Assembly: GCA_965262915.1 (NCBI GenBank)
Contig: OZ253564.1
Span: 736,001 to 800,000 of the forward strand
DNA: 64,000 nt
Source of the DNA: Candidatus Spongiisociaceae bacterium
Lineage (GTDB): Bacteria > Actinomycetota > Acidimicrobiia > Spongiisociales > Spongiisociaceae
Reading direction: 5' to 3'
Under the pieces are notes generated by a model. The model made no database searches. It had not been told where the DNA came from and saw only the letters and a program-made list of their open reading frames with translations. The first letter of the stretch is position 1. Each line of letters starts with the position of its first letter. The position numbers were made by a program, and so were the translations under genes. Shown here in pieces: positions 237 to 33,439 of the stretch.

Positions 237-1766
237 AACATCGCCAGGATCGAATCCGACGACGACAACTTCCAGGATCTCTACTCGGTGAAAGTCACCA
301 CCTACCGGGCTATCCGCAAGCTCTACGAGTTGGGGGTGACCACCGGGACCTCGGCCTCCACTTTCTCGCCGGACGGACGGGTGAGCCGGGCCCAGATGGC
401 GGTATTCATCGCCCGGATGCTGGCTCACACCAACGCCCGCCCGGCCGGCCTCACGGTCCAGATCGCGGGCACCGAGGTTTTCGAGAACTCTGATGTCCGC
501 CTGTCGGTGACCCTGCGCGACCCGGGCCACCGGCCTTTCGAGGACAGGGAGGTGGACATCTTCACCGCTACCGACCCCGCCAAGGCCTTCGACCAGAACG
601 GTGTGTGCACGGACCATGTCGCGCCCGCCCTGGGCAGCAGCGCCTGTGCCATCGACGTGTCGGACAAGACCACTGACAGCCTGGGCAACCTGGAGGCCGA
701 CATCGCGGTGGGGGATGTCGAAGGTCTTCGCATCTGGGTGTGGACGGACGAGAGCGGCAAGCTGTTCGACGAGGACAGTGCGGAACCCGTGGTGGTCGAC
801 ATCACGACCCGAAGCGGCGCTTCCGCTCTGGAAGTCTCCGATGACCTCCCGCCCACTGCCATGAAGGTGCAGTTCGGGGACTCGGTCACCTTCACCTTCC
901 GGATGATCGATGACGATGGCGATCCTATAGCCCGCTCGGGTGTCAGCTTCACCGTCCAGGTCCGGGAGTCGCGGGACAACGGGCGCAGTTTCGAGCCGAC
1001 GACCATCAGCAAGCAGACCGGTCCGGACGGCGGGACCCAGCTCACTTTCCGGTTCACGGATCCATCGCCGGATCCGGGCGACATCGCCAAGCTCGATCTC
1101 GACATCCGGAACAGCAGCGGGTTCAAGGTCGAGGATGAAACCACCATCGGGATGGTGGAGGACGACAGGAGCCGTGACGATCCCTTCCTGGACTGGGCGG
1201 ACGGGCGGGCCGAGCCCACGACCCTGGAACTCAGCCTCACCAAGGAGTACCGGACCGCCTCGTCGGACGGCGCCGGTGCGGCTTCCACCGTTAGGGCCGG
1301 TCTCACCGATCAGTACGGTGGTCCGGTAGCCCGAGAGAACATCGTGTTCACATCCAACGACAGGAACGGGGTTCCGAGCGGGGTACGCCGCCTTACCAAC
1401 CGGCAGGGTGTCGCCAGCCTCAACTACCTGCGAGACTTCACCGGAAGGGGTGTAGAGACGATCACCGCCAGGTTCAAGCGCCTCAGCACCACAGCTCGCC
1501 AATACTGGATAGCGCCCATATCCGGCACTGCCGACGGGTCGGGCAGCGTCCGTGTCGTGGACACCGACAACAACACCATCGTCGTGGCCGACGGCAACGA
1601 CGCCTTCCTGATCGAGTACGACGGCAACGATCACTACCAGGTCGACGCCGAACCGGTCACCGTAGCCAACTTCGAAGCAAAACTGACTGTCGGCGACACC
1701 CTCGCCTACGAGATCGTCGGCCCCGGCGAGGCCGCCGTCAACAACTTCAACCTCACCGATCGGTAG
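216..1766 (+). CDS. SLH-domain surface protein with Ig-like regions, N-terminally truncated
   Basis: SLH motif GVTTGTSASTFSPDGRVSRAQMAVF. Paralogous to 11634..13742 but lacks its signal peptide and first SLH repeats. Confidence 0.8.
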   Translation: MAPTWRANIARIESDDDNFQDLYSVKVTTYRAIRKLYELGVTTGTSASTFSPDGRVSRAQMAVFIARMLAHTNARPAGLTVQIAGTEVFENSDVRLSVTLRDPGHRPFEDREVDIFTATDPAKAFDQNGVCTDHVAPALGSSACAIDVSDKTTDSLGNLEADIAVGDVEGLRIWVWTDESGKLFDEDSAEPVVVDITTRSGASALEVSDDLPPTAMKVQFGDSVTFTFRMIDDDGDPIARSGVSFTVQVRESRDNGRSFEPTTISKQTGPDGGTQLTFRFTDPSPDPGDIAKLDLDIRNSSGFKVEDETTIGMVEDDRSRDDPFLDWADGRAEPTTLELSLTKEYRTASSDGAGAASTVRAGLTDQYGGPVARENIVFTSNDRNGVPSGVRRLTNRQGVASLNYLRDFTGRGVETITARFKRLSTTARQYWIAPISGTADGSGSVRVVDTDNNTIVVADGNDAFLIEYDGNDHYQVDAEPVTVANFEAKLTVGDTLAYEIVGPGEAAVNNFNLTDR

Positions 1767-1798
1767 GCCAGGTGCCAGACACCCCAGGAGCGTAAATG

Positions 1799-3019
1799 TC
1801 AAGCTGCGGCTCGGTCGATGGTGGTTCGGTGTGCCCATGCGGTGTGTTCGTTGTAGGGGGTTTGGTGTTTGAGGCAGCCGTGGAGGATGCCGACGAGTCG
1901 GTTGGCGAGGGCTCGGAGTGCTTGGTGGTGGAGGTCGTCGGCTGCTCGGCGTTTGTCGTAGAAGGCTCGGGCTCCTGGACTGTTCTTTAGGGAACAGAAC
2001 GCCCATTGGTCCAGGGCGTTGGGGAGACGCCGGTTACGGACCTGGCGAGCCAGGACAGCGTGCTTGCGGCCTGACGCCACTGTGATGGGCGACGTGCCGG
2101 CGTAGTTCGTGGGGGACTTGGCGCTGGTGTAACGGTCGGGGTCGTCCCCGAACTCACCGAGCGCCCGGGCGCCGAGCACAGTACCGAGTCCTGGCTGAGA
2201 CAGGTAGATGTCGGCGTCCGGGTGTTCTCTAAAACGGGTCTCGAGGGTTGCTTGGAGGTCTGCGATCTGGCGGTTGGTTTCCACAATGAGTTTCACCAGT
2301 GCCCCAACAGTCGCCCCGAAGGCGTCCGCGACCGGCCCCGGCGCGGTGAGATGGCGGGTACGGAGACCTTTCTGTATGCGGCGGGCAACCTTGTCGAGGT
2401 TGCGTCGCCGTCCGCCCCTCTGTAGCGCTGCTCGGATCTGGGGCAGTGTCAGGCGGGCGCCCAGGATTGGGGTGGGTGCCCGACCGAGTATGGCCACAGC
2501 GTCGCGATGGGCCAGGTCATCGAAGGTTTCCAGCGCTGCGGGATAGTACTCGCGCAGGGCGTTGCGGACTTGGTTGGTGTGACGCGTCCGAGCCCAGATC
2601 AGGTTCTGATGCGTTCTGGCCATGATCTTGATCGCGTCTGATTCGGGGCTGTCACCGGCCACCGAACGATGGTTGTGACGGTCGGTGCGTACCAAATCAG
2701 CTAACACCTTGGCATCACCGCGGTCTGATTTCGCTCCGCCCAGGCTGTGACGGTCCCGGTAGCGGGACACAGCCCTAGGATTGATCGCATACACCAAATA
2801 GCCCGCTGCGATGAGCGCACCCACCCACAGCCCACGATCGGTCTCGATCCCTACCACCACCTCAGCTGCATCCGATGCGTGTTCGGCGACCAACTGGTGG
2901 AAGCGGGCTATACCTTGGATCCCTTCCGGGAGACGGGCGAAACCCAGCCGGGTCCCATCCTCGTCCATCAGATACACATCATGGTGGCCCTCAGCCCAGT
3001 CGTTACCCACAAATATCAT
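1799..3019 (-). CDS. IS110 family transposase (bridge recombinase)
   Basis: DEDD motifs GNDWAE..HD, GIET, KSDRGDA. C-terminal YAGTSPITVASG, typical of the Transposase_20 domain. Confidence 0.95.
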   Translation of the reverse strand: MIFVGNDWAEGHHDVYLMDEDGTRLGFARLPEGIQGIARFHQLVAEHASDAAEVVVGIETDRGLWVGALIAAGYLVYAINPRAVSRYRDRHSLGGAKSDRGDAKVLADLVRTDRHNHRSVAGDSPESDAIKIMARTHQNLIWARTRHTNQVRNALREYYPAALETFDDLAHRDAVAILGRAPTPILGARLTLPQIRAALQRGGRRRNLDKVARRIQKGLRTRHLTAPGPVADAFGATVGALVKLIVETNRQIADLQATLETRFREHPDADIYLSQPGLGTVLGARALGEFGDDPDRYTSAKSPTNYAGTSPITVASGRKHAVLARQVRNRRLPNALDQWAFCSLKNSPGARAFYDKRRAADDLHHQALRALANRLVGILHGCLKHQTPYNEHTAWAHRTTIDRAAA

Positions 3020-3039
3020 CCCTTCCTCCTTCAACGGGG

Positions 3040-3255
3040 ATCGATCCTTGCCGAGCTGTAGAACACGCCTGGCGGCGACCTAATGGATCAGTGCTCTGTG
3101 GCACGCCACCCCATGAGCGCTACAAGCGGCCCTCGCGAACCGGCCGGGGTACGATCTGGCACTAGGAATCAGCGTTCCGGGTGCCACCAGTACTCACCGG
3201 CCAGCCAGCTCAACCACCACACCCTCCCAGACAAACCAGCAGAAGTGGTGGACCC
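3040..3255 (-). ncRNA. Putative IS110 bridge RNA
   Basis: Contains guide-like 7-mers matching the target flanks (TGGCACC at 3180-3186, GTGCCAG at 3156-3162) and the element ends (TGGGGTG at 3107-3113, CCATTAG at 3080-3086). Exact RNA ends are uncertain. Confidence 0.8.
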
Positions 3256-3260
3256 CCATT

Positions 3261-3314
3261 AGGTGTCAGGTGTCGGTTGCCAGGTGTCGGTTGCTGTTGA
3301 CGATCATCAAGTAC
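3261..3314. repeat. Heptamer (YCAGGTG-like) tandem repeat plus conserved TGCTGTTGACGATCATCAAGTAC motif
   Basis: aggtgtcaggtgtcggttgccaggtgtcgg. The 23-mer recurs inverted at 8065-8087. Confidence 0.8.
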
Positions 3315-3396
3315 GGTGGATTTCGCCCCGGATCCCTTGGAACCAACCCTCTAGTATGGAGGTCGTGCTTGTACCTGCGGCAGAAGGGGTGATGGA

Positions 3397-4857
3397 GTGA
3401 GGGCTGTGCGGGTTGCGGGGGCGCTGGTCATGGTGGTGTCTGTTCTGACGCCGGGAACCTGGGATGTGGTGGAGGCTCAGACGACGGTAGCTGGTTTGTG
3501 CGACGCGGGGTCGGTGGCACAGTTCAGTGATGTGGGTGCGGGTGATTATGGAGCGGAGTACACAAAGTGTATGAGAGCGTTGGGTTTGTCGCTTGGTAGA
3601 GGCGACGGGTCTTATGGGCCTGACTTGGAACTGACGCGGGCGCAGATGGCCTCGTTCTTGGTGCGGCTCTGGGAGGACGTGTTAAGGAAGCAGTGCCCGA
3701 AGGCTGTGGATGCGCCGTTCACTGATGTGGCTGGTAATACCCACGAGGAGAGTATTGGCTGCTTGTACGGTCTGGATATCACCAAGGGTACGACGGCGGT
3801 GACCTATGGGCCGGGTGAGAAACTGAAAGTTACCCAGATTTCACTGTTCCTGGTTCGTGTCTACGAAAAGGCCGGAAACCGCTGCGGCGTTGCGGGCGAT
3901 GGCCTTGAGCGGGCGGTGGCATGCCTGGCTACGTTGAGGGTTATACCGTCGGAGTCTGAAGGCAGCAGCCTCGGGTTCGTGACCAGAGACCAGATGGCCG
4001 TGTACATGGTCGGGTTGTGGCACAACATGGTCGGCCGGGGTCTACCGCCACGACCACCGGCAAGGCCGGCCGACGGCACCTACACCACCGTATCGGCCGG
4101 TCGGTATCACTCGTGCGGTCTACTCTCTGACGGGACCATCGAATGCTGGGGCAACAACGAATCAGATCAGCTGAACGCTCCCGATGGGCGGTACCTCTCC
4201 GTATCGGCCGGTGGGGACCATTCGTGCGGTGTGCGCTCTGACGGGGCTATCAGATGCTGGGGTGACAACGATGATGGCAAGTTGAGTGTGCCTGCAGGGG
4301 AGTACAGTTCCGTATCGGCTGGCGGGGACCATTCGTGCGGTCTGGGTTCTGACGGGAGTATTGAATGCTGGGGCAGCAACGACTCCGGCCAGGTGAACGC
4401 CCCCCGCGGTGAGTACCTCTCCGTATCGGCCGGGGGGGACCATACCTGCGGTCTACGCTCTCACGGTCGCGTCAGATGCTGGGGTGACAACGATGACGGC
4501 CAGGTGAGAGACCCAGCAGGGGAGTTCATTTCCGTATCGGCCGGCAGGTTCCATTCGTGCGGTGTGCGCCCTGACGGGAGCGTCGAATGCTGGGGCAGCA
4601 ACGAATTCGGTCAGGCGACCCCTCCCGGTGGGCGGTACCTCTCCGTATCGGCCGGTGGAGACCATACCTGCGGTGTGCGCACCAACCACCTGATCAGATG
4701 CTGGGGCAACAACAAGTTCGGCCAACTAAACGCACCCGACGTGCGCTTCAACGCTGTCTCGGCCGGCAGGTTCCATACCTGCGGTGTGCGCACCAACCGC
4801 GCCATCACATGTTGGGGCAACAACCGCTTCGGCGAGGTGGACACACCCGGCGGGTAG
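3397..4857 (+). CDS. Secreted SLH-domain protein with RCC1-like repeats
   Basis: Signal peptide, SLH motif (YGPDLELTRAQMASFL) and seven VSAGxxHxCG..DG...CWG repeats. Confidence 0.9.
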   Translation: MRAVRVAGALVMVVSVLTPGTWDVVEAQTTVAGLCDAGSVAQFSDVGAGDYGAEYTKCMRALGLSLGRGDGSYGPDLELTRAQMASFLVRLWEDVLRKQCPKAVDAPFTDVAGNTHEESIGCLYGLDITKGTTAVTYGPGEKLKVTQISLFLVRVYEKAGNRCGVAGDGLERAVACLATLRVIPSESEGSSLGFVTRDQMAVYMVGLWHNMVGRGLPPRPPARPADGTYTTVSAGRYHSCGLLSDGTIECWGNNESDQLNAPDGRYLSVSAGGDHSCGVRSDGAIRCWGDNDDGKLSVPAGEYSSVSAGGDHSCGLGSDGSIECWGSNDSGQVNAPRGEYLSVSAGGDHTCGLRSHGRVRCWGDNDDGQVRDPAGEFISVSAGRFHSCGVRPDGSVECWGSNEFGQATPPGGRYLSVSAGGDHTCGVRTNHLIRCWGNNKFGQLNAPDVRFNAVSAGRFHTCGVRTNRAITCWGNNRFGEVDTPGG

Positions 4858-5556: not shown

Positions 5557-5637
5557 TCGGGCAGCGTCCGTGTCGTGGACACCGACAACAACACCATCGT
5601 CGTGGTCAGCGGCAACGCCGCCTTCCTGATCGAGGAC
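5557..5637 (+). repeat. Partial duplicate of SLH gene segment ~1540-1616
   Basis: tcgggcagcgtccgtgtcgtggacaccgacaacaacaccatcgtcgtgg is nearly identical to 1539-1590. Confidence 0.85.
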
Positions 5638-5722
5638 TGGCACCTGGCACCTGGCACCTGGCACCTGGCACCTGGCCGCCTAGCACCTGGCGCCTAGCAC
5701 CTGTTGCGGGGTGTCAGGTACC
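5638..5722. repeat. Heptamer TGGCACC tandem repeat
   Basis: (tggcacc)n with degenerate units, followed by inverted ggtgtcaggtaccag. Confidence 0.9.
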
Positions 5723-7928: not shown

Positions 7929-8227
7929 ACAGGTGTCAGGTGTCAGGTGTCGGGTGTCAGTCCTTGATGATGGGTTCTGTGGCCAGCTACGGAACGGGCG
8001 AGTGGCCGACACAGATAAGGGCACCGAGAATCCTTCAGTCCCGCCAAACAGGTGCTAGGTGCCAGTACTTGATGATCGTCAACAGCACCCGACACCCGAC
8101 CCGACACCCGACACCTGGCACCTGACACCCGAGACCTGACACCCGACACCTAAAACCTGGCCCCCGGCACCTGGCACCCGATACCTGACACCTGGCACCT
8201 GACACCTGGCACCCGATACCTGACACC
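7929..8227. repeat. Opposed heptamer arrays (CAGGTGT / GRCACCY)
   Basis: Forward units at 7929-7960 and 8048-8064. About 20 reverse units at 8085-8227, abutting the stop codon of the next gene. Confidence 0.9.
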
Positions 8228-10047
8228 TACTGTGCGGCGAAGTTGCGACCTCGGAGCAGGTAGCCGGCTACCTGGGCCCGGGAGTTGGAATCCCACGGGC
8301 AGAACTTCAGCGGGTCGGCCGAGCAACTGCCGGTGATCCCGGCTGCGTACGACGAGTCGATGTTCGGGGCGTGGACGGTCCGGGCGGTGTCGACGAACCC
8401 CACCGGCTCCGCCGCGGGTAGGGCGAACGCCCGCTTGAGCAAGGTGGCCATCTGCGCCCGGGTCACCTCCGTCTCGGGGCAGTACTTATCGGGATCCTCC
8501 GTGCACCCGAGCGTAACGTTCAGATCCGCAAGACGCTCGACGTAGGGTGCCCACCACACCTTGGGATCCACATCGGTGAAGCGCACCGAGGACACCGGAT
8601 CGGGATCCATCCCGTCGAGCACGCGTACGAACCACACCGCGGCTTCCCAACGGAGGAGCGGTCCACCCGGGCACAAGAGACCCTCGCTGCATCCGGTGTC
8701 TTCGAACACCCCCTCCCCGTAGAGGATACGCACAGCCCTCGTGTGCTCTCCTGCCGAGTCGAGATCCGAAAAGCTGTCCGTGTCGGTCGAATCCGGTTCC
8801 CCGCCGTTGTTGTCGCCGCCGTTGTTGTTGTTGTTGCCTCCGGCGTCGGTGCCTCCGGTGTTGGTGCCTCGGGTGTTGGTGCCTCCGCCTCCGTTGTTGG
8901 TGCTGCCTCCGTTGTTGGTGCTGCCGCCGTTGGTGTTGCCGGGGTTCTGTTCCGTGACATCGATACTTACCTCAACGGTGTCGCTTGCCAGCATGGGATC
9001 GGTGGCCTTGACCGTGACCATGTATCCGCCCGTGTCCAGGGGATGCCCGTTGGTCCTTATCTGGCCGGTATCGGGCTTTATCCGGAACGTATCGGTATCG
9101 CCGCCCTCCAGGCTGTAGGTCAGGGGGTCGTTGTCCGGATCCGAGGCTGTCACGGGGGCTCCGACAGGGCTGTCCATCCTCGCGTTCTTCGAGACCGCCC
9201 GATCGACTGACTCGGTGCCGAAATCAGGCGGCGAGTTCGACCCGTTTACGGGGTTGCCGGGTACGCGGTCCTCCGAGACAGTATGGGCACACGCCGGCTG
9301 GTAGTCGAGATTGTCATAGAAGACTTCGGGCCGCAGATAGTGCCCTGCATCTTCCGCCCTGGGTGTATAGCTGTCCGTGTAGCGTGCGACGATCGTCCAA
9401 GGGCCATCCGGGCGAACCGAGCGAGCCCACGTCCATTGCTCCCTGGTTGCGCCGGCGGGATCGTGCAGAGTAGCGGTCAACGTCACGCCCACGAGCGGAT
9501 ACAACGACTGTACCGACACCGATGGGAGCAACTCCTGGTGCGGGCGGCTCAGATCGTTGGCCGGGATTCTGAGTCCCAGGACTCCGAGGAAGGCCTTGGC
9601 GTCGGAATCGTTGTCGCGCCAGAGGCCCTCGATACCGATGACCTCGCACTGTTCGGCGTCGTTGTCGTTCCGTACGTTGATCCTGGCGTAGGCGGATGTC
9701 TCTCCGGCCGGGATGACGATCTTACGGTCATACAAGGTGTTGCCGATCGACGGCAGCGAGCTTCCGTTCGAGCCGGTGATGGTGAAGTCCGCTTGGCTGC
9801 CTTCCGTTGCCGTTCCGCGGATCGCCAGGTACACGTGCCTGTCGACCTCGTCGGGTTGGCCGTCGCCAAAAGAGAAGATCAGCTTCGCGCGACGGCCCTC
9901 ACGGAAGTCGGAGGCATCGACAAACATGTGGATATCCGGATCTTCGCCGTTGTTCTGGGCCGAGGCGGGAACCATCAGAAACAGGACGCCCGCGACAAGA
10001 GGGACGAATGCAACACTCGCCGCCTTCAGCAGACGCCCTAACTTCAT
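8227..10047 (-). CDS. Secreted protein with Calx-beta-like and cadherin-like domains, Gly/Asn/Thr linker and C-terminal SLH
   Basis: Signal peptide. PVTASDPDNDPLTYSL..IKPDTGQI cadherin motif. Cys-SLH motif YCPETEVTRAQMATLL. Confidence 0.88.
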   Translation of the reverse strand: MKLGRLLKAASVAFVPLVAGVLFLMVPASAQNNGEDPDIHMFVDASDFREGRRAKLIFSFGDGQPDEVDRHVYLAIRGTATEGSQADFTITGSNGSSLPSIGNTLYDRKIVIPAGETSAYARINVRNDNDAEQCEVIGIEGLWRDNDSDAKAFLGVLGLRIPANDLSRPHQELLPSVSVQSLYPLVGVTLTATLHDPAGATREQWTWARSVRPDGPWTIVARYTDSYTPRAEDAGHYLRPEVFYDNLDYQPACAHTVSEDRVPGNPVNGSNSPPDFGTESVDRAVSKNARMDSPVGAPVTASDPDNDPLTYSLEGGDTDTFRIKPDTGQIRTNGHPLDTGGYMVTVKATDPMLASDTVEVSIDVTEQNPGNTNGGSTNNGGSTNNGGGGTNTRGTNTGGTDAGGNNNNNGGDNNGGEPDSTDTDSFSDLDSAGEHTRAVRILYGEGVFEDTGCSEGLLCPGGPLLRWEAAVWFVRVLDGMDPDPVSSVRFTDVDPKVWWAPYVERLADLNVTLGCTEDPDKYCPETEVTRAQMATLLKRAFALPAAEPVGFVDTARTVHAPNIDSSYAAGITGSCSADPLKFCPWDSNSRAQVAGYLLRGRNFAAQ

Positions 10048-13742: not shown

Positions 13743-13746
13743 TCGT

Positions 13747-13786
13747 GTCAGGTGTCAGGTGTCAGGAGTCAGGTGTCAGGTGCTAG
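13747..13786. repeat. Heptamer TCAGGTG array directly after a stop codon
   Basis: gtcaggtgtcaggtgtcaggagtcaggtgtcaggtgctag. Confidence 0.9.
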
Positions 13787-17729: not shown

Positions 17730-20700
17730 CTAGAGGTTGGCGGCTGAGTCACCCACAGTTGACGTTCCGGGGTCAGATCCACCTGCGTCTTGGGTTATCG
17801 TGATCGTGGTGTGGGGTGTGGTGGATACCACGGTGATGGTGTAGCCACGGATGGTGACACTTTCTCCATCGGTCAGGATTGGGAACCCTTTGATGTGTCC
17901 GGTACCTGGATCACCAGCCACCTTCACGGGGAGTTCGCCTGTGGCGATGGCGGCGTCCACCGTGTAGATGAGTACACCTTCTGCGGGTAGTGCAGGGAGG
18001 AGAGTCTCGTTTCCCTCAGGGGTTCGGTATTCTGTACCTGTGTCATAACCCAGGTTACGTCTGTTTTCGATGACAATCACTTCAGTGTCAGACAAGGGAA
18101 CAGCCACCATGCCTATCCCTGCCCCGGGGTCAGCGACGGGACTCAGGGTGACGGTCACCTCAGATTCGGTCACACAGAGAATCTGGGCGGTGTCGAGCCA
18201 GCCCAGCTGCCAGCGGCTCCATGCCAGCATTTCAAGAGCCTCCAGCGAGTTTGCGTAGCCGGTGGATCGCGATCCGTCCGGATGTTGTCATACATGAGCA
18301 ACTCGGGGGTCACCTTGGGAAGATACCGGGAAGTTGACCCGCATGCCCATGAGACCGAATCTGGCGTGAGCCCAGGTCCGGCCACGGGGTGTGTACTCCG
18401 CTCGGTGGCGGCGTAAGTCGTAGGGCCCGAGGTCCAGTAGCCCGAGATTGTGGACCAGTTCGTGGGCGCCTACCCGTCCTTGGTGGTACGTCGGACCTGA
18501 TGGGAATGCGTTCATGCGGAGAGTTGAGACAGTGCCTTCATCGGTCTGGACTGATCCAAGAGCGTTGCCTCCACTGAAGTGGGCGCTGGGCATGAGAACT
18601 ATCAGGGCGTCGATGCCCGTGAAGTCGAAGTCGGGATCCGCCAACCGTACAGCTTCCCTATCTACCTCATGTCTCAGTTCAGGGATTCCATAAGGGCTGG
18701 TGTAGATGTGGTCCCGGTAGTTGAACTCTGCCCTTAGCCACCGGTCCAGAGACACGAACTCCAAGTCGAGCTTGCCGTAGCTGGAGGTCTCCAGATACTT
18801 CTCCATGTAGCGAAGCACCGATTCTGCCTCATGTGCCACCGATGTGGTTGCTTGAGCGTCTGGGAAGTCCACGAAGAGCACCGCTACCCGTACAGTCCCG
18901 GTTGAGGGCACCGCCCGGCCGGGCAGGGGGAACCCGGCTGTCGTACCCTCCACGCCCTTCGGACGGCACATCCGGGGGTCCGGACCCTGGGTCCATGGAG
19001 CTTGTTGCACGGCAGCCGGAAACGAGACAACCGGGTCTCGACCCCAGCAGGTGACGGTTCCGTTGGTGCGGATTCCACACGAGTGGGCTCCTTCGGCGGT
19101 AACTGCTGTGAACTCCCCTTGGGGGGCGTCGGTCTGACTATCGGAGTTTCCTCCCCAGCAGACGACTGTCCAGTCGTTGCGGACTCCACACGAATGCTCA
19201 AACCCGGCAGCAACCGAGCTGAACTGCCCCTCGGGAGCGTCCGCCTGATTCTCCCAGTTGCCACCCCAGCAGGCAACCGTCCCATCGGTGCGGACTCCAC
19301 ACGAATGCCCGTATCCCGCGGACACCGTGCTGAACTGCCCCTCGGGAGCGTCTGCCCGACCGGCCCAGTTCGAACCCCAGCAGGTGACCGTCCCATCGGT
19401 GCGGACTCCACACGAATGCCCGTATCCGGCAGCAACCGTGCTGAATTGCCCCTCGGGAGCGTCCGCCCGACCGGCCCAGTTCGAACCCCAGCAGGCAACC
19501 GTCCCATCGGTGCGGACTCCACACGAATGCCCGTATCCGGCAGCAACCGTGCTGAATTGCCCCTCGGGAGCGTCCGCCCGGCCCCACCAGTTCTCTCCCC
19601 AGCAGGCAGCCGTCCCATCGGTGCGGACCCCACACGAATGAGCGAACCCGACGGTCAAACCTAGAAACGTTCCGTCTGGTGGGTCGACACGCCCCCCTCC
19701 TCCATAACCCCAGCAGGCAACGGTCCCATCGGCACGGACTCCACACGAATGCCCACCCCCCGTCGAAACAGCGCTGAACTTTCCTTGCGGAGCCTCCGGT
19801 CGACCATCGGTGTTCTCTCCCCAGCAGGCCACCGTCCCATCGCTGCGAACCCCACACGAATGGAACTCTCCCGCCGATACGGCACTGAACTTTCCTTCGG
19901 GTGGGTCAGATCGACCATCGGTGTTCTCTCCCCAGCAGGCCACCGTCCCATCGCTGCGAACCGCACATGAATGGGTTTCCCCCGCCGATACAGCGCTGAA
20001 CTTCCCCCAGGGAGCGTCTGCCCGGCCCCACCAGTTCTCTCCCCAGCAGGCCACCGTCCCATCGCTGCGAACTCCACACGAATACCCACTCCCGGCGGAC
20101 ACCGCTGCGAACTTGCCCTCGGGAGCGTCAACCCGACCGTCCGAGTTCGCACCCCAGCAGACAACCGTCCAATCGGTACGGATCCCACACGAATGAGCGT
20201 CCCCCGCCGATACAGCGCTGAACCTCCCCTCGGGGGCGTCCACCTGATCCCCCCAGTTCGCACCCCAGCAGACAACCGTCCCCTCAGTACGGATCCCACA
20301 CGAATACCCATACCCGGCGGACACCGCGCTGAACTCCCCCTCCGGAGCGTCAGCCTGATCCCCCCAGTTCGTACCCCAGCAGACAACCGTCCAATCGGTA
20401 CGGATCCCACACGAATGCCCATTCCCGGCGGACACCGCTCTGAACTCTCCCTGCGGCGCGGCAGCCTGACCGTCCCAGTTCCCACCCCAGCAGACAACCG
20501 TCCAATCAGTACGGATCCCACACGAAAAACCATTGCCACTGGAAACCGTTGCGAACCCCCCATCCTGGGGTGGTTGGTCAGGCCGAACCGAACCGAACCG
20601 CAGAGCACGGCTCAAGAACGTTGCCATCTGACCACGAGTGGTTTCCCGCCGGGGACAGTACCGAGCCGGGCTAGTCGAACACCCCGCCGTCACACCCACA

Positions 20701-21253: not shown

Positions 21254-21867
21254 CGCGTAAACCGTACCGAAGATCGTGAGCAGCGTCCATGAGTCGCCCC
21301 CGTGCCTCCCTCGGAGATGAACCGAATCGCGTTCGTCGGAGAGTGTGATGGTGCCCGGGTTTGTTACCGCACCGGGTCTACCGGAGTGAAGTTCCCCCGG
21401 TGGCCGGACACTCCCGCAAAGTGGTGTCGGTTCTTGTTGGTGTATGGGGGGCCTTGAGTGGCTCTTCGGAAGTGAGCTGCGTCTATGACGAGCGTATGTT
21501 CTTCAGTCAGTTGTTGGGTGAGCCAGTGTTGATATCGAGTAGCGAGATGGTGGGCGTCGTGGAGGCCTCGTTTATCGACAAGACAGCCAACCACACCTTG
21601 CGGCGGGACGATGAAGCAAGAAGGAGTCGGGCCTGGTACGAGGTCATTGCGGTGCCTCCCACATGCCGCTCAGGGATCTCTCGGGTCCCTACCAGTGGCC
21701 TGGATCATGGGGAGCAGGAACCAGCCACATGGTCCGGGGCAGCCGCGTTCGGTGGGGTGTCAGTGGGTCCGGCGCCGCAGAGCATCGCCGCGTACGCCAT
21801 CCGGACCAGCGGGAGGTGGCGGATTGCTGCTCCGCGACCTACCGGGACAGGTATAGGGTGCTTCATC

Positions 21868-24972: not shown

Positions 24973-25160
24973 CTATGGGGGAACTCCATCTTCGGGCGGG
25001 CGGTCATCTGGCCACCGAGAGCAGCCCGTGCGGCGGCTTCGGCGTCTACGGTGTCGGTCTTGCCCCGGAGGCGGCGTAGCTGGGCGGTTTGGGCGCATGA
25101 CCTCTACCACCTCGACACCGGCTGCGCTCAGATGACGAGCCAGGCTGGCAGCGCAGTCAA
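24973..25160 (-). pseudogene. IS110 transposase remnant
   Basis: LARHLSAAGVEVVEVMRPNR, then in a shifted frame GKTDTVDAEAAAR. Confidence 0.7.
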
Positions 25161-33387: not shown

Positions 33388-33439
33388 CCGACCGACCGAC
33401 CGACCGACCGACCGACCGACCGACCGACCGACCGACCGA
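33388..33439 (+). repeat. (CCGA)13 simple sequence repeat inside the type ISP TRD
   Basis: 52 nt, 13 perfect units. Confidence 0.97.

What the first reader, a model, noticed from the sequence alone, without database searches (positions are those of the whole stretch)
1768..3290. IS110 with a readable bridge RNA programmed against the host heptamer repeat
Seen, on the minus strand: the empty site is TGACAC-CT-GGCAC and the circle junction is TGGGGTGT-CT-AATGG. The non-coding end carries, in order, TGGCACC (left target guide, matching the common repeat unit, one mismatch to this site), GTGCCAG (reverse complement of CT-GGCAC), TGGGGTG (left donor guide) and CCATTAG (reverse complement of CT-AATGG). 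Established: this is the target-loop/donor-loop layout of IS110 bridge RNAs such as IS621, which targets REP elements. Inference: a new ortholog aimed at a 7-bp tandem repeat, where each repeat junction is a potential safe intergenic target.
Basis: partly seen in the sequence, partly recalled or inferred. Interest (0 to 1): 0.8.

Follow-up and report, generated by a model that had tools for sequence, protein, structure and literature searches.

The report
Bridge-RNA IS110 element targeting heptamer repeats
A small jumping gene of the IS110 family carries its own guide RNA whose address segments match the 7-base host repeat it sits in, and sister copies with altered addresses sit at correspondingly different sites: a clean new example of a mechanism first described in 2024.

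Summary
Window 1779-3260 (minus strand) is a 1,482-bp IS110-group insertion sequence with a CT core at each junction. It encodes a DEDD/Ser recombinase preceded by a 241-nt non-coding left end. None of 200,000 shuffles of that left end holds the three exact 7-mers together.

The genome has 11 full-length copies and one solo left end. Their target-loop guides change together with their own flanks:
- GUGCCAG goes with CT-GGCAC.
- GUGUCAG goes with CT-GACAC.
- GUGCUAG goes with CT-AGCAC.
- Two further classes carry quite different guides and sit at quite different sites.

The same rule holds in sister Acidimicrobiia genomes and in 36 distinct insertions of more distant relatives. The RNA fold, with two internal loops each capped by a hairpin, is supported by compensatory changes in 37 of 44 pairs. 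Contigs from two other public runs join 1776 directly to 3261, which is the predicted empty site. The target 13-mer occurs 299 times in this genome.

It is a new member of a known kind (IS621-type bridge RNA). Expression and recombination were not tested. Two features are noteworthy. First, guides retarget naturally by single bases within one genome. Second, because the target is a tandem repeat, the two target guides are complementary to each other.

The parts
1779..3260 (-). IS110-group insertion sequence, 1,482 bp; 1,484 bp counting one copy of the CT core. It has no terminal inverted repeats.
   Evidence: The ends were defined by aligning 11 genomic copies. Contigs in runs X2 and X5 skip exactly 1,484 bases from 1776 to 3261, with 2 letters shared between the two sides. 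No inverted repeat links the two ends.
1799..3019 (-). Recombinase gene, 406 aa from the ATG at 3019 (an upstream TTG at 3034 would give 411 aa). Predicted catalytic residues are D7, E59, D99, D102 and S316.
   Evidence: Pfam DEDD_Tnp_IS110 E=1.8e-34 and Transposase_20 E=1.6e-9. NCBIfam NF033542 'IS110 family RNA-guided transposase' scores 183.3 bits against a cut-off of 140. The phmmer alignment to IS621 (8wt6) places its D..E..DxxD and SG motifs on these residues. The residue roles are taken from passages of PMC11208158.
3053..3213 (-). Core of the bridge RNA: outer helix, target-binding module and donor-binding module. This is the stretch used to build model R1.
   Evidence: Consensus fold. 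Model R1 matches upstream of the recombinase gene in 79 of 80 related loci and at 12 places in this genome. In the resulting alignment 37 of 44 pairs show compensatory changes.
3214..3251 (-). 5' stem-loop of the left-end RNA
   Evidence: Predicted in both the single-sequence fold and the consensus fold. Its covariation was not tested.
3142..3202 (-). Target-binding module. It has a lower stem and an internal loop of 11 nt (5' side) and 12 nt (3' side), capped by hairpin GGAA-CGCUGA-UUCC at 3178-3165.
   Evidence: Across the 18 closest copies, the variable columns are concentrated in the two loop strands.
3180..3186 (-). Left target guide TGGCACC. It has the sense of the left target plus the core C.
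   Evidence: It matches flank TGACACC at 6 of 7 positions, and the seventh is a G-T wobble. In copy c2 the match is 7 of 7.
3156..3162 (-). Right target guide GTGCCAG, the reverse complement of CT-GGCAC
   Evidence: It matches its own right flank at 7 of 7 positions. It changes in step with the flank in copies c3-c6 and c9.
3075..3120 (-). Donor-binding module: a lower stem and an internal loop capped by hairpin GUGC-CACAGA-GCAC at 3104-3091.
   Evidence: The loop strands are conserved across the family.
3107..3113 (-). Left donor guide TGGGGTG
   Evidence: It equals the right-end sequence TGGGGTG at 1786-1780. The next position is G opposite T, and it is followed by C for the core C.
3080..3086 (-). 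Right donor guide CCATTAG
   Evidence: It is the reverse complement of the core CT plus the first 5 nt of the left end, AATGG. CCATTA is conserved in nearly all of the 80 related matches.
1797..1802 (-). TTGACA, the -35 half of a promoter that is complete only in the circular junction form. It overlaps the recombinase stop codon (1801-1799).
   Evidence: Seventeen nt downstream, the last right-end base, the core CT and the left-end bases AAT together give TCTAAT. TTGAC is kept in 33 of 34 distinct related right ends. TCTAAT is kept in 25 of the 26 loci where both ends were located. Promoter function is inferred, not shown.
3261..3294 (-). Left flank: core CT (3262-3261) preceded by a degenerate heptamer mini-array
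   Evidence: Tandem Repeats Finder rows 3261-3288 and 3267-3294; sequence.
1767..1778 (-). Right flank: core CT (1778-1777), then GGCAC-CTGGC, running up to the stop codon of the neighbouring gene (1764-1766 on the + strand)

Best explanation
Window 1779-3260 (minus strand) is an intact copy of an IS110-group insertion sequence. It encodes a DEDD/Ser recombinase. Its 241-nt left end encodes a bridge RNA of the IS621 type.

The RNA has two internal loops:
- The first loop carries a left target guide (sense of the target's left half) and a 7-nt right target guide (antisense of the core plus the right half). Together they specify TGRCAC-CT-GGCAC, the junction between two units of a host 7-bp tandem repeat.
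- The second loop carries guides for the element's own joined ends, TGGGGTG(T)-CT-AATGG.

By analogy with IS621, the element circularises, and this joins a -35 box in the right end to a -10 box that spans the core. The RNA is then made, four recombinase subunits bring donor and target together on the two loops, and strands are exchanged at the CT core.

Shown here:
- the anatomy of the element;
- the guide-to-flank and guide-to-end matches;
- covariation of the guides with insertion sites across copies and across genomes;
- covariation support for the RNA fold;
- the precise empty site in other samples.

Inferred, not shown:
- transcription of the RNA;
- the junction promoter;
- the circle;
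- catalysis.
For: 1. Family: Pfam PF01548 and PF02371. NCBIfam NF033542 is above its cut-off. The IS621 catalytic motifs align.

2. Own genome: 11 full-length copies at 82-100% identity, plus a solo left end. Each sublineage has its own guides, and they match its own flanks:
- c1, c2: GTGCCAG with CT-GGCAC.
- c3-c6: GTGTCAG with CT-GACAC.
- c9: GTGCTAG with CT-AGCAC.
- c7, c8, c10: AGGCTCC and TGATAG with AAGGCTC-CT-ATCA.
- c11 and the solo copy: (A)ATGCTCC with (A/G)ATGCTC-CT.
- The 5 nt after the core match the copy's own right guide at 5 of 5 positions in 7 copies and at 4 of 5 in 4 copies.

3. Sister genomes: seven copies in other Acidimicrobiia assemblies have the same ends and the same donor loop. 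Their target guides differ and fit their own flanks.

4. Family-wide: in 36 distinct insertions, the mean match is 5.28 of 7 on the left and 4.92 of 7 on the right. With guides and flanks permuted, the means are 3.0 and 2.16. None of 2,000 permutations reached the observed values.

5. Fold: 93.8% of cells form a standard pair, against 38-44% when partners are slid by 1-3 columns. 37 of 44 pairs carry compensatory changes. The target-loop strands are hypervariable and the donor-loop strands are conserved.

6. Empty site: one contig in X2 and one in X5 join 1776 to 3261, skipping 1,484 bases with 2 shared letters. These contigs differ from the adjacent 340 bases at only 3-4 letters.

7. Targets: TGRCACCTGRCAC occurs 299 times, against 0.46 expected per strand.

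8. Chance: 0 of 200,000 shuffles hold the three exact guides together.
Against: - No direct evidence of transcription, circles or recombination. The RNA-library contigs over 3048-3128 may derive from DNA.
- Protein similarity to IS621 is weak (phmmer E=5.4e-7, two stretches).
- Rfam 15 gave no bridge-RNA match on this stretch.
- The minimum-energy fold of this copy pairs the two target guides with each other. The closed form is 13.5 kcal/mol more stable than the open loop.
- The left target guide does not pair with the second core base. The left donor guide is mismatched at the position next to the core.
- Only 6 of 11 copies keep the 406-aa frame throughout.
- This copy has two residues (PT at 303-304) where seven of the other copies have RR, near S316.
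- Three copies carry a right donor guide that fits only CTA of their own left end.
- c7 and c8 share flanks (152 of 152 and 144 of 150 bases identical), so they may represent one insertion event.
Confidence: 0.9

Rival explanations
1. The family is RNA-guided, but this particular copy is a recently immobilised relic. Its recombinase would be impaired, so it moves only when a sister copy supplies the enzyme, or not at all.
For: Copy c1 differs from its 99.4%-identical twin c2 by clustered changes. These include PT for RR at residues 303-304, close to the S316 loop; seven of the other copies have RR there. Five of the 11 copies are already frameshifted.
Against: The 406-aa frame, the catalytic motifs, both loops and both ends of c1 are intact. 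The locus is polymorphic between samples, which points to recent movement. The bridge RNA stretch of c1 and c2 (left-end start to ATG) is letter-for-letter identical, so the RNA part is not in doubt.
Confidence: 0.15
2. Insertion into heptamer arrays is directed by the protein, or by an unusual DNA structure of the repeat. On this view the left-end RNA is only a leader that regulates recombinase expression.
For: For another IS110 element, a preprint abstract reports that a target stem-loop adds specificity beyond base pairing (10.64898/2026.03.19.712850, abstract read). Repeat arrays could form slipped structures; this is my inference.
Against: Single-base differences in the right guide track single-base differences in the flank (G, A, or AG for GG) between otherwise similar copies. 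Copies with unrelated guides sit at unrelated sites. A protein-only model does not predict this, because the guide columns are almost the only variable columns in the RNA.
Confidence: 0.04
3. The guide-flank matches are chance or a by-product of low-complexity sequence. On this view the copies spread by duplication or by homologous recombination between repeats.
For: c7 and c8 have near-identical flanks, because both lie inside copies of another insertion sequence.
Against: 0 of 200,000 shuffles reproduce the three exact guides. The flanks of the seven heptamer-class copies are unrelated outside the repeats. An exact empty site exists in other samples. The permutation control across 36 insertions was never reached.
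Confidence: 0.01

Closest known systems
IS621 of Escherichia coli, the archetypal bridge-RNA IS110 element (passages of PMC11208160 and of PMC11208158)
   Same: - DEDD RuvC-like domain plus a Tnp domain with a catalytic Ser.
- RNA encoded in the left end, upstream of the gene.
- A 5' stem-loop, then a target-binding loop, then a donor-binding loop.
- The left guides have the sense of the top strand and the right guides are antisense.
- CT core.
[quoted passage not shown]
- A natural target that is a repeated intergenic sequence.
- The bases just 3' of the right guides fit the 'handshake' rule: A after the right target guide faces donor position 7 (T), and G after the right donor guide faces target position 7 (C). 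This is read from the sequence and is consistent with the rule, not a test of it.
   Different: - Only distant protein similarity (phmmer E=5.4e-7); 406 aa against 326 aa.
- The right target guide is 7 nt rather than 4.
- The left target guide pairs with the core C but not the core T.
- The target is a 7-bp tandem repeat rather than a REP palindrome, so the two target guides are complementary to each other.
ISPpu10, ISPa11 and other IS110 members that insert into REP or conserved intergenic repeats (extended-data legend of PMC11208160; abstract of 10.64898/2026.03.19.712850)
   Same: The strategy is the same: the guide is aimed at a multi-copy intergenic repeat. The copies in sister genomes (L026-L043) sit just after a GC-rich hairpin that is conserved between loci. 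This resembles the stem-loop-bearing target described for ISPpu10.
   Different: The heptamer-class target here has no adjacent stem-loop of its own. The host is an uncultured Acidimicrobiia lineage.
CazIS110-1 and the copy-out / half-match models (passages of 10.1101/2025.10.25.684509 and of 10.64898/2026.08.31.748434)
   Same: Same family and the same two-loop RNA. Those models allow recombination at sites that match only half of a loop. That could account for the odd right end of c11/L014 and for the rearranged copy at L017/L013.
   Different: Nothing here tests copy-out against cut-out. The empty-site contigs cannot tell an ancestral empty site from an excision.
IS1111 subgroup with a 3' guide RNA (seekRNA). 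The subgroup's layout is recalled; the term appears only in the abstract listing.
   Same: The same recombinase family and the same site-specific insertion into repeats.
   Different: In that subgroup the RNA lies downstream of the gene. Here only 20 nt follow the stop codon, and the structured RNA is upstream.

Membership tests
IS110 family, IS110 subgroup (bridge-RNA elements) | N-terminal DEDD RuvC-like domain | tested here: met
   PF01548 E=1.8e-34, covering profile positions 1-155 of 155. D7, E59, D99 and D102 align with the IS621 DEDD residues.
IS110 family, IS110 subgroup (bridge-RNA elements) | C-terminal Tnp domain with a conserved Ser-Gly | tested here: met
   PF02371 E=1.6e-9. S316-G317 aligns with the IS621 Ser-Gly.
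IS110 family, IS110 subgroup (bridge-RNA elements) | Curated whole-protein model | tested here: met
   NF033542 scores 183.3 bits against a cut-off of 140.
IS110 family, IS110 subgroup (bridge-RNA elements) | No terminal inverted repeats; the junctions share only a 2-bp core, with no longer target duplication | tested here: met
   No inverted repeat links the two ends. The empty-site joint has 2 shared letters. CT is present at both junctions in 10 of 11 copies; c11 has an aberrant right end.
IS110 family, IS110 subgroup (bridge-RNA elements) | Structured non-coding RNA in the left end, upstream of the gene, with two internal loops | tested here: met
   Consensus fold. 37 of 44 pairs carry compensatory changes. 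The model matches in 79 of 80 related loci at the same position.
IS110 family, IS110 subgroup (bridge-RNA elements) | The first loop is complementary to both strands of the target around the core and covaries with it | tested here: met
IS110 family, IS110 subgroup (bridge-RNA elements) | The second loop is complementary to the joined ends of the element | tested here: met
   For this copy, 7 nt match on each side. In 3 of the 12 genomic RNA copies the right donor guide does not fit.
IS110 family, IS110 subgroup (bridge-RNA elements) | A promoter reconstituted at the circle junction | tested here: inconclusive
   The sequence fits TTGACA, a 17-nt spacer and TCTAAT, and this is conserved in relatives. 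The -10 box lacks the usual A at its second position. No transcript or circle was observed.
IS110 family, IS110 subgroup (bridge-RNA elements) | RNA-dependent recombination of donor and target | not testable with these tools
   This needs a recombination assay.
IS1111 subgroup (guide RNA at the 3' end) | Long non-coding right end that encodes the RNA | tested here: not met
   The right end is 20 nt beyond the stop codon. The structured RNA is upstream of the gene.

The most novel reading that the evidence does not exclude
The element and the host heptamer microsatellite may be evolving together. Three-unit heptamer runs number 205 in this genome, against 4-8 in three congeners and none in 27 other relatives searched. 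A recombinase whose target loop reads every repeat junction could itself expand, contract or seed these arrays, by recombining neighbouring units or half-matching sites.

Meanwhile, sister lineages escape competition by changing one or a few guide bases. One of them now inserts into the 5' non-coding region of a rival, more abundant IS110-family element. Another inserts at that rival's right-end junction.
Probability: 0.1. Interest if true: 0.7.

Novelty: new member of a known kind. Interest (0 to 1): 0.45.

Why it matters
This locus gives a natural, within-genome demonstration of bridge-RNA programmability. Closely related copies differ in one or a few guide bases and sit at sites that differ in the corresponding bases.

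It also raises two practical questions for people who engineer bridge recombinases:
- How does a recombinase cope with a target loop whose two guides can pair with each other? That pairing is unavoidable when the target is a tandem repeat whose period equals the guide spacing.
- Is a G in the left guide used to read two target variants by G-T wobble?

For the host, the element marks several hundred potential insertion points. This particular locus is polymorphic between samples.

The mechanism itself is not new.

Tried and rejected
Rfam search. An E-value search of 1700-3400 and a gathering-threshold search of the whole window gave no bridge-RNA family. The only hit above threshold was Ms_AS-4, antisense to the gene.

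Single-sequence folding. The z-score was only -2.5 and the fold pairs the two target guides. I did not use it as evidence that the guides lie in loops.

The consensus fold also pairs part of the left donor guide with the right donor guide. I treated this as an artefact and removed those 5 pairs before building model R1. The covariation counts therefore refer to the 44 remaining pairs. They were made on an alignment fitted to that structure, which leans towards it.

Family-wide end finding used simple pattern rules:
- 76 of the 80 matches had both target-loop strands.
- The left end was located in 60 and the right end in 39; both ends were located in 38, of which 36 were distinct.
- The other rows were dropped before the count.
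- Two rows with a 10-nt loop score low only because of a register shift.

RNA-library run X18. Ten contigs were laid, some over the donor loop (3048-3128). One contig runs from the right end into a CT-ATCAGG flank that fits the class-B right guide. The tool warns that such contigs do not show transcription and that depths cannot rank parts of a gene, so I do not count this as evidence of expression. Parts without cover are not interpreted.

Literature on earlier description:
- (IS110, bridge RNA, tandem repeat, heptamer) returned 5 papers that hold at least 3 of the 4 terms. None holds 'heptamer'.
- (Acidimicrobiia, IS110, insertion sequence, sponge) listed 8 of 11 papers; none of the 8 listed holds both 'Acidimicrobiia' and 'IS110'.
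- These searches cover only the held library.
- Supplementary files were not opened. Supplementary Data 2 of PMC11208160, which lists target motifs per guide pair, may already contain this or a sister element.

No structure prediction, complex prediction or large protein search was run. The family assignment did not need them.
Full report
OBSERVATION. All reads below are on the minus strand.
- The left flank ends CTGACAC-CT at 3269-3261.
- The element starts with AATGGGGG at 3260 and ends with CCTGGGGTGT at 1779.
- A second CT lies at 1778-1777 and is followed by GGCAC.
- The four 7-mers are at 3186-3180 (TGGCACC), 3162-3156 (GTGCCAG), 3113-3107 (TGGGGTG) and 3086-3080 (CCATTAG).
In 200,000 shuffles of the 226-nt left end, the three exact 7-mers never occurred together. 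Singly they occurred in 2.5%, 5.9% and 0.6% of shuffles.

THE ELEMENT. The only long frame is 1799-3019 (406 aa from the ATG; a TTG at 3034 would add 5 residues).
- It matches Pfam DEDD_Tnp_IS110 (E=1.8e-34) and Transposase_20 (E=1.6e-9).
- It matches NCBIfam NF033542 'IS110 family RNA-guided transposase' at 183 bits, against a cut-off of 140.
- Its only relative among solved structures is the IS621 recombinase (E=5.4e-7). That alignment puts D7, D99, D102 and S316-G317 on the IS621 catalytic residues, and E59 lies beside its Glu. The roles of those residues come from passages of PMC11208158.
- There are 241 non-coding bases before the ATG and 20 after the stop codon.
- No inverted repeat links the two ends.
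- The copy lies between two real genes: SLH plus Big_1 upstream, and SLH plus RCC1 repeats downstream. It sits 10 nt after the stop codon of the first.

COPIES IN THE SAME GENOME. The genome is one 5.06-Mb contig. It holds 11 full-length copies at 82-100% identity, plus fragments. The RNA model finds 12 left-end RNAs: the 11 copies and one solo left end. Aligning the copies fixes both ends to the base. It also gives the key result: the identity groups coincide with guide classes, and each class fits its own flanks.
- c1 and c2 (99.4% alike): right guide GTGCCAG, right flank CT-GGCAC.
- c3-c6 (95-98% alike): GTGTCAG, flank CT-GACAC.
- c9: GTGCTAG, flank CT-AGCAC.
- c7, c8 and c10 (98.5-99.3% alike): left guide AGGCTCC(T) and right guide TGATAG, flanks AAGGCTC-CT-ATCA.
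- c11 and the solo copy: left guide (A)ATGCTCC(T), left flank (G/A)ATGCTC-CT.
- c6 has a private change in its left guide (ACGGCACC) that fits its private flank (TCGACAC-C).
- Two right-end fragments also abut heptamers. L016 abuts CT-GACAC followed by six more units. L013 abuts CT-GGCAC.
- Two short left-end remnants (L019, L020) abut CACCCTC-CT and CACTCTC-CT, a fourth target class.
- c7 and c8 may be a single event, because both lie inside near-identical copies of another element.

OTHER GENOMES.
- Seven copies in other Acidimicrobiia assemblies (77-81% protein identity) have the same ends and the same donor loop. Their target guides are CCACCCTCC or CCACTCTCC on the left and TAGATCTAG or TAGGGCTAG on the right. 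Their flanks read CACCCTC-CT and CT-AGATC or CT-AGCCC. This is the class whose remnants survive in the window's genome.
- The model built from 18 close sequences matched, on the gene's strand and just upstream of it, in 79 of the 80 related loci. These reach down to 53% protein identity (Rhodococcus, Nocardia, Pseudonocardia, Actinoplanes and others).
- In that alignment the two strands of the first loop are hypervariable. The second loop is nearly constant..TGGGRTG.C and ..CCATTA...
- Simple rules located both element ends in 38 of 76 usable rows, 36 of them distinct. There, guides matched flanks at a mean of 5.28 of 7 positions on the left and 4.92 of 7 on the right. After permuting guides and flanks the means were 3.0 and 2.16, and none of 2,000 permutations reached the observed values.
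- Relatedness between rows inflates such tests. However, the permutations also include same-class pairs, which works in the opposite direction.

THE RNA. The minimum-energy fold of this copy alone does not leave the target guides free. It pairs UGGCAC with GUGCCA. The comparative fold gives the following layout:
- a 5' stem-loop;
- an outer helix;
- a first module: lower stem, an internal loop of 11 and 12 nt, and a capping hairpin of 4 bp with a 6-nt loop;
- a second module of the same design.
On the 80-sequence alignment, 93.8% of cells form standard pairs, against 38-44% when partners are slid by 1-3 columns. 37 of 44 pairs show changes on both sides, and no shuffle reached any of the five measures. 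That alignment was fitted to the model's structure, so it leans towards it. This is the layout described for IS621 in passages of PMC11208160 and PMC11208158.

DETAILS OF PAIRING (read from the sequence; inference).
- The left target guide has the sense of the top strand and ends on the core C. Its next base is C here, U in classes B and C, and G in the sister genomes. Pairing with the core T is therefore not conserved.
- The one difference from this site (G where the flank has A) is an rG-dT wobble with the bottom strand. One left guide can thus read both TGGCAC and TGACAC. The right guide would face a C-A mismatch, and it is the right guide that has diversified.
- The right target guide is 7 nt (core plus 5). 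This is longer than the 4 nt of IS621, as the IS621 authors noted for some orthologues.
- The left donor guide matches TGGGGTG, mismatches the base next to the core, and then matches the core C. Most relatives have a T, A or G at that guide position while the DNA keeps T. In IS621 this position was reported as the mismatch-tolerant one.
- The bases 3' of the two right guides fit the 'handshake' rule of PMC11208158.
- Because the target is a tandem repeat of period 7, the two target guides are complementary to each other. The closed form of the module is 13.5, 10.8 and 11.7 kcal/mol more stable than the open loop in c1, c3 and c9. The figure is about 3 kcal/mol in c7 and c11. The heptamer class is nevertheless the most numerous.

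PROMOTER. The right end carries TTGACA at 1802-1797, overlapping the stop codon. Seventeen bases further on, the last right-end base, the core CT and the left-end bases AAT would give TCTAAT in a circle. TTGAC is present at that place, with a spacer of 17 or 18 nt, in 33 of 34 distinct related right ends. TCTAAT is present in 25 of the 26 loci where both ends were found. This matches the junction promoter described for IS621. It remains sequence evidence only.

POPULATION EVIDENCE. One contig in run X2 and one in run X5 (different studies) join 1776 to 3261. They skip 1,484 bases, with 2 letters that fit either side and 59 and 53 letters on the shorter side. These contigs differ from the window at 4 and 3 of the adjacent 340 bases. 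This is the predicted empty site in near-identical strains, and it confirms the ends and the 2-bp core. It cannot tell an ancestral empty site from an excision. A contig in X1 runs from the flank into the element, so that sample is occupied.

THE HOST REPEAT.
- TGRCACCTGRCAC occurs 299 times in the genome (179 on one strand, 120 on the other), against 0.46 expected per strand. A strict pattern finds 73 arrays of 3 to 22 units.
- In the window, arrays lie at 5637-5703, 7930-7960, 8086-8228 and 13745-13782.
- Runs of three units number 205 here. Three of 7 congeners have 4, 5 and 8. None were found in the other 27 relatives searched. The reversed-pattern control gave 0.
- Many arrays flank, in inverted orientation, a conserved core of roughly 105 nt. 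Thirteen of 14 hits to a motif from that core lie next to heptamers. c6 and c9 sit exactly where this core meets its arrays.

AGAINST, AND UNEXPLAINED.
- No transcript, circle or reaction was observed.
- Only 6 of 11 copies keep the full frame. c3 and c5 shift frame after about residue 327. c9 is out of frame across the Ser motif. c6 and c11 have stop codons.
- c1 has PT where seven of the other copies have RR at residues 303-304.
- c6, c10 and c11 carry a donor loop (GAGGGGGTG and CTGCTAG) whose right guide fits only CTA of their own left end. c8 has only the 5' change.
- c11 and fragment L014 end in ..CCTGGG(G)-ATGCTC-CT instead of ..TGT-CT. The string ATGCTCCT followed by ATGGTTGTCAA occurs at 32 sites and marks the right-end junction of a second IS110-family element.

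COMPARISON AND VERDICT. In every feature that could be tested by sequence, the element behaves as a member of the IS110 subgroup with a 5' bridge RNA. It is not of the IS1111 type, whose RNA lies 3' of the gene. The mechanism has been known since 2024, and covariation of guides with natural targets was how it was found. This is therefore a new member of a known kind.

Beyond that, it offers three things: guide retargeting by one or a few bases among sister copies of one genome, a tandem-repeat target that makes the target loop self-complementary, and nested insertion into a rival IS110-family element. My searches of the held library found no paper linking IS110 or bridge RNA to heptamer repeats and, among the papers listed, none linking IS110 to Acidimicrobiia.

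Noticed in passing
window 2117-2198 (+): Rfam Ms_AS-4 (RF02464, 'Actinobacteria sRNA') matches at 87.6 bits, above its gathering score of 50. The match is on the strand antisense to the recombinase gene, inside the Transposase_20 region. Either an antisense RNA is conserved in this IS family, or the Rfam family was built on conserved IS110 coding sequence.
   Followed up: no
window 7934-8127; also genome 86330-86609, 721385, 1873950 and others: There is a MITE-like or REP-like composite repeat: a conserved core of roughly 105 nt (AGTCCTYGATGAT...CACCGAGAATCCTTCAGTC) flanked by heptamer arrays in inverted orientation. Of 14 motif hits in the genome, 13 lie next to heptamers. The short motif GTACTTGATGATCGTCAACAGCA beside the studied copy (window about 3295-3320) belongs to it.
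   Followed up: partly
genome 541931-543413 and 544723-546205 (L118); fragments at window 21495-21572 and 24986-25137: A second, more abundant IS110-family element is present: 1,483 bp, a 421-aa ORF with PF01548 and PF02371, and 47 DNA matches in the genome, about 30 of them near full length at 71-100% identity. Here two 100%-identical inverted copies flank an ISL3 transposase gene.
   Followed up: partly
genome 4419110-4422080, 3638399-3641368, 287302-290128: Copies c7, c8 and c10 of the studied element are inserted at about position 143-145 of that second element. This lies in its structured 5' non-coding region, about 60-90 nt before its ORF. Two unoccupied copies of the same site exist, at 542081 and 546054.
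   Followed up: partly
genome 290125 (c11) and 4804822 (L014): The right ends read ..CCTGGG(G)-ATGCTC-CT instead of ..CCTGGGGTGT-CT. The added letters equal the left half-target of this guide class. They also equal the sequence that borders the right end of the second IS110-family element at 32 sites. Half-site recombination is a possible cause, untested.
   Followed up: partly
genome copies c6, c8, c10, c11: A variant donor loop (GAGGGGGTG on the 5' side, CTGCTAG on the 3' side) is shared by copies of three different target classes. This suggests exchange between copies. Loose ends of contigs in RNA-library run X18 carry the same variant.
   Followed up: no
genome 2736775-2737499 (L017 and L013): This is a rearranged copy. 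The first 92 nt of the left end break right after the DNA that encodes the left target guide. They are followed by a duplicate of the sequence that also follows the right-end flank. The last 350 nt of the element lie about 280 nt further on.
   Followed up: no
L026-L028, L041, L043; L019, L020 (own genome): The CACCCTC-CT target class lies directly after a GC-rich hairpin (GAACCCC..GGGGTTT) that is conserved between unrelated loci. This recalls the stem-loop-bearing target reported for ISPpu10 (abstract read).
   Followed up: no
window 4081-4791 and 19153-20526: Long tandem repeats of period 111/222 lie inside coding sequence. The first set encodes the RCC1 repeats of the SLH protein downstream of the element.
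   Followed up: no
window 33388-33439: A perfect (CCGA)x13 microsatellite.
   Followed up: no
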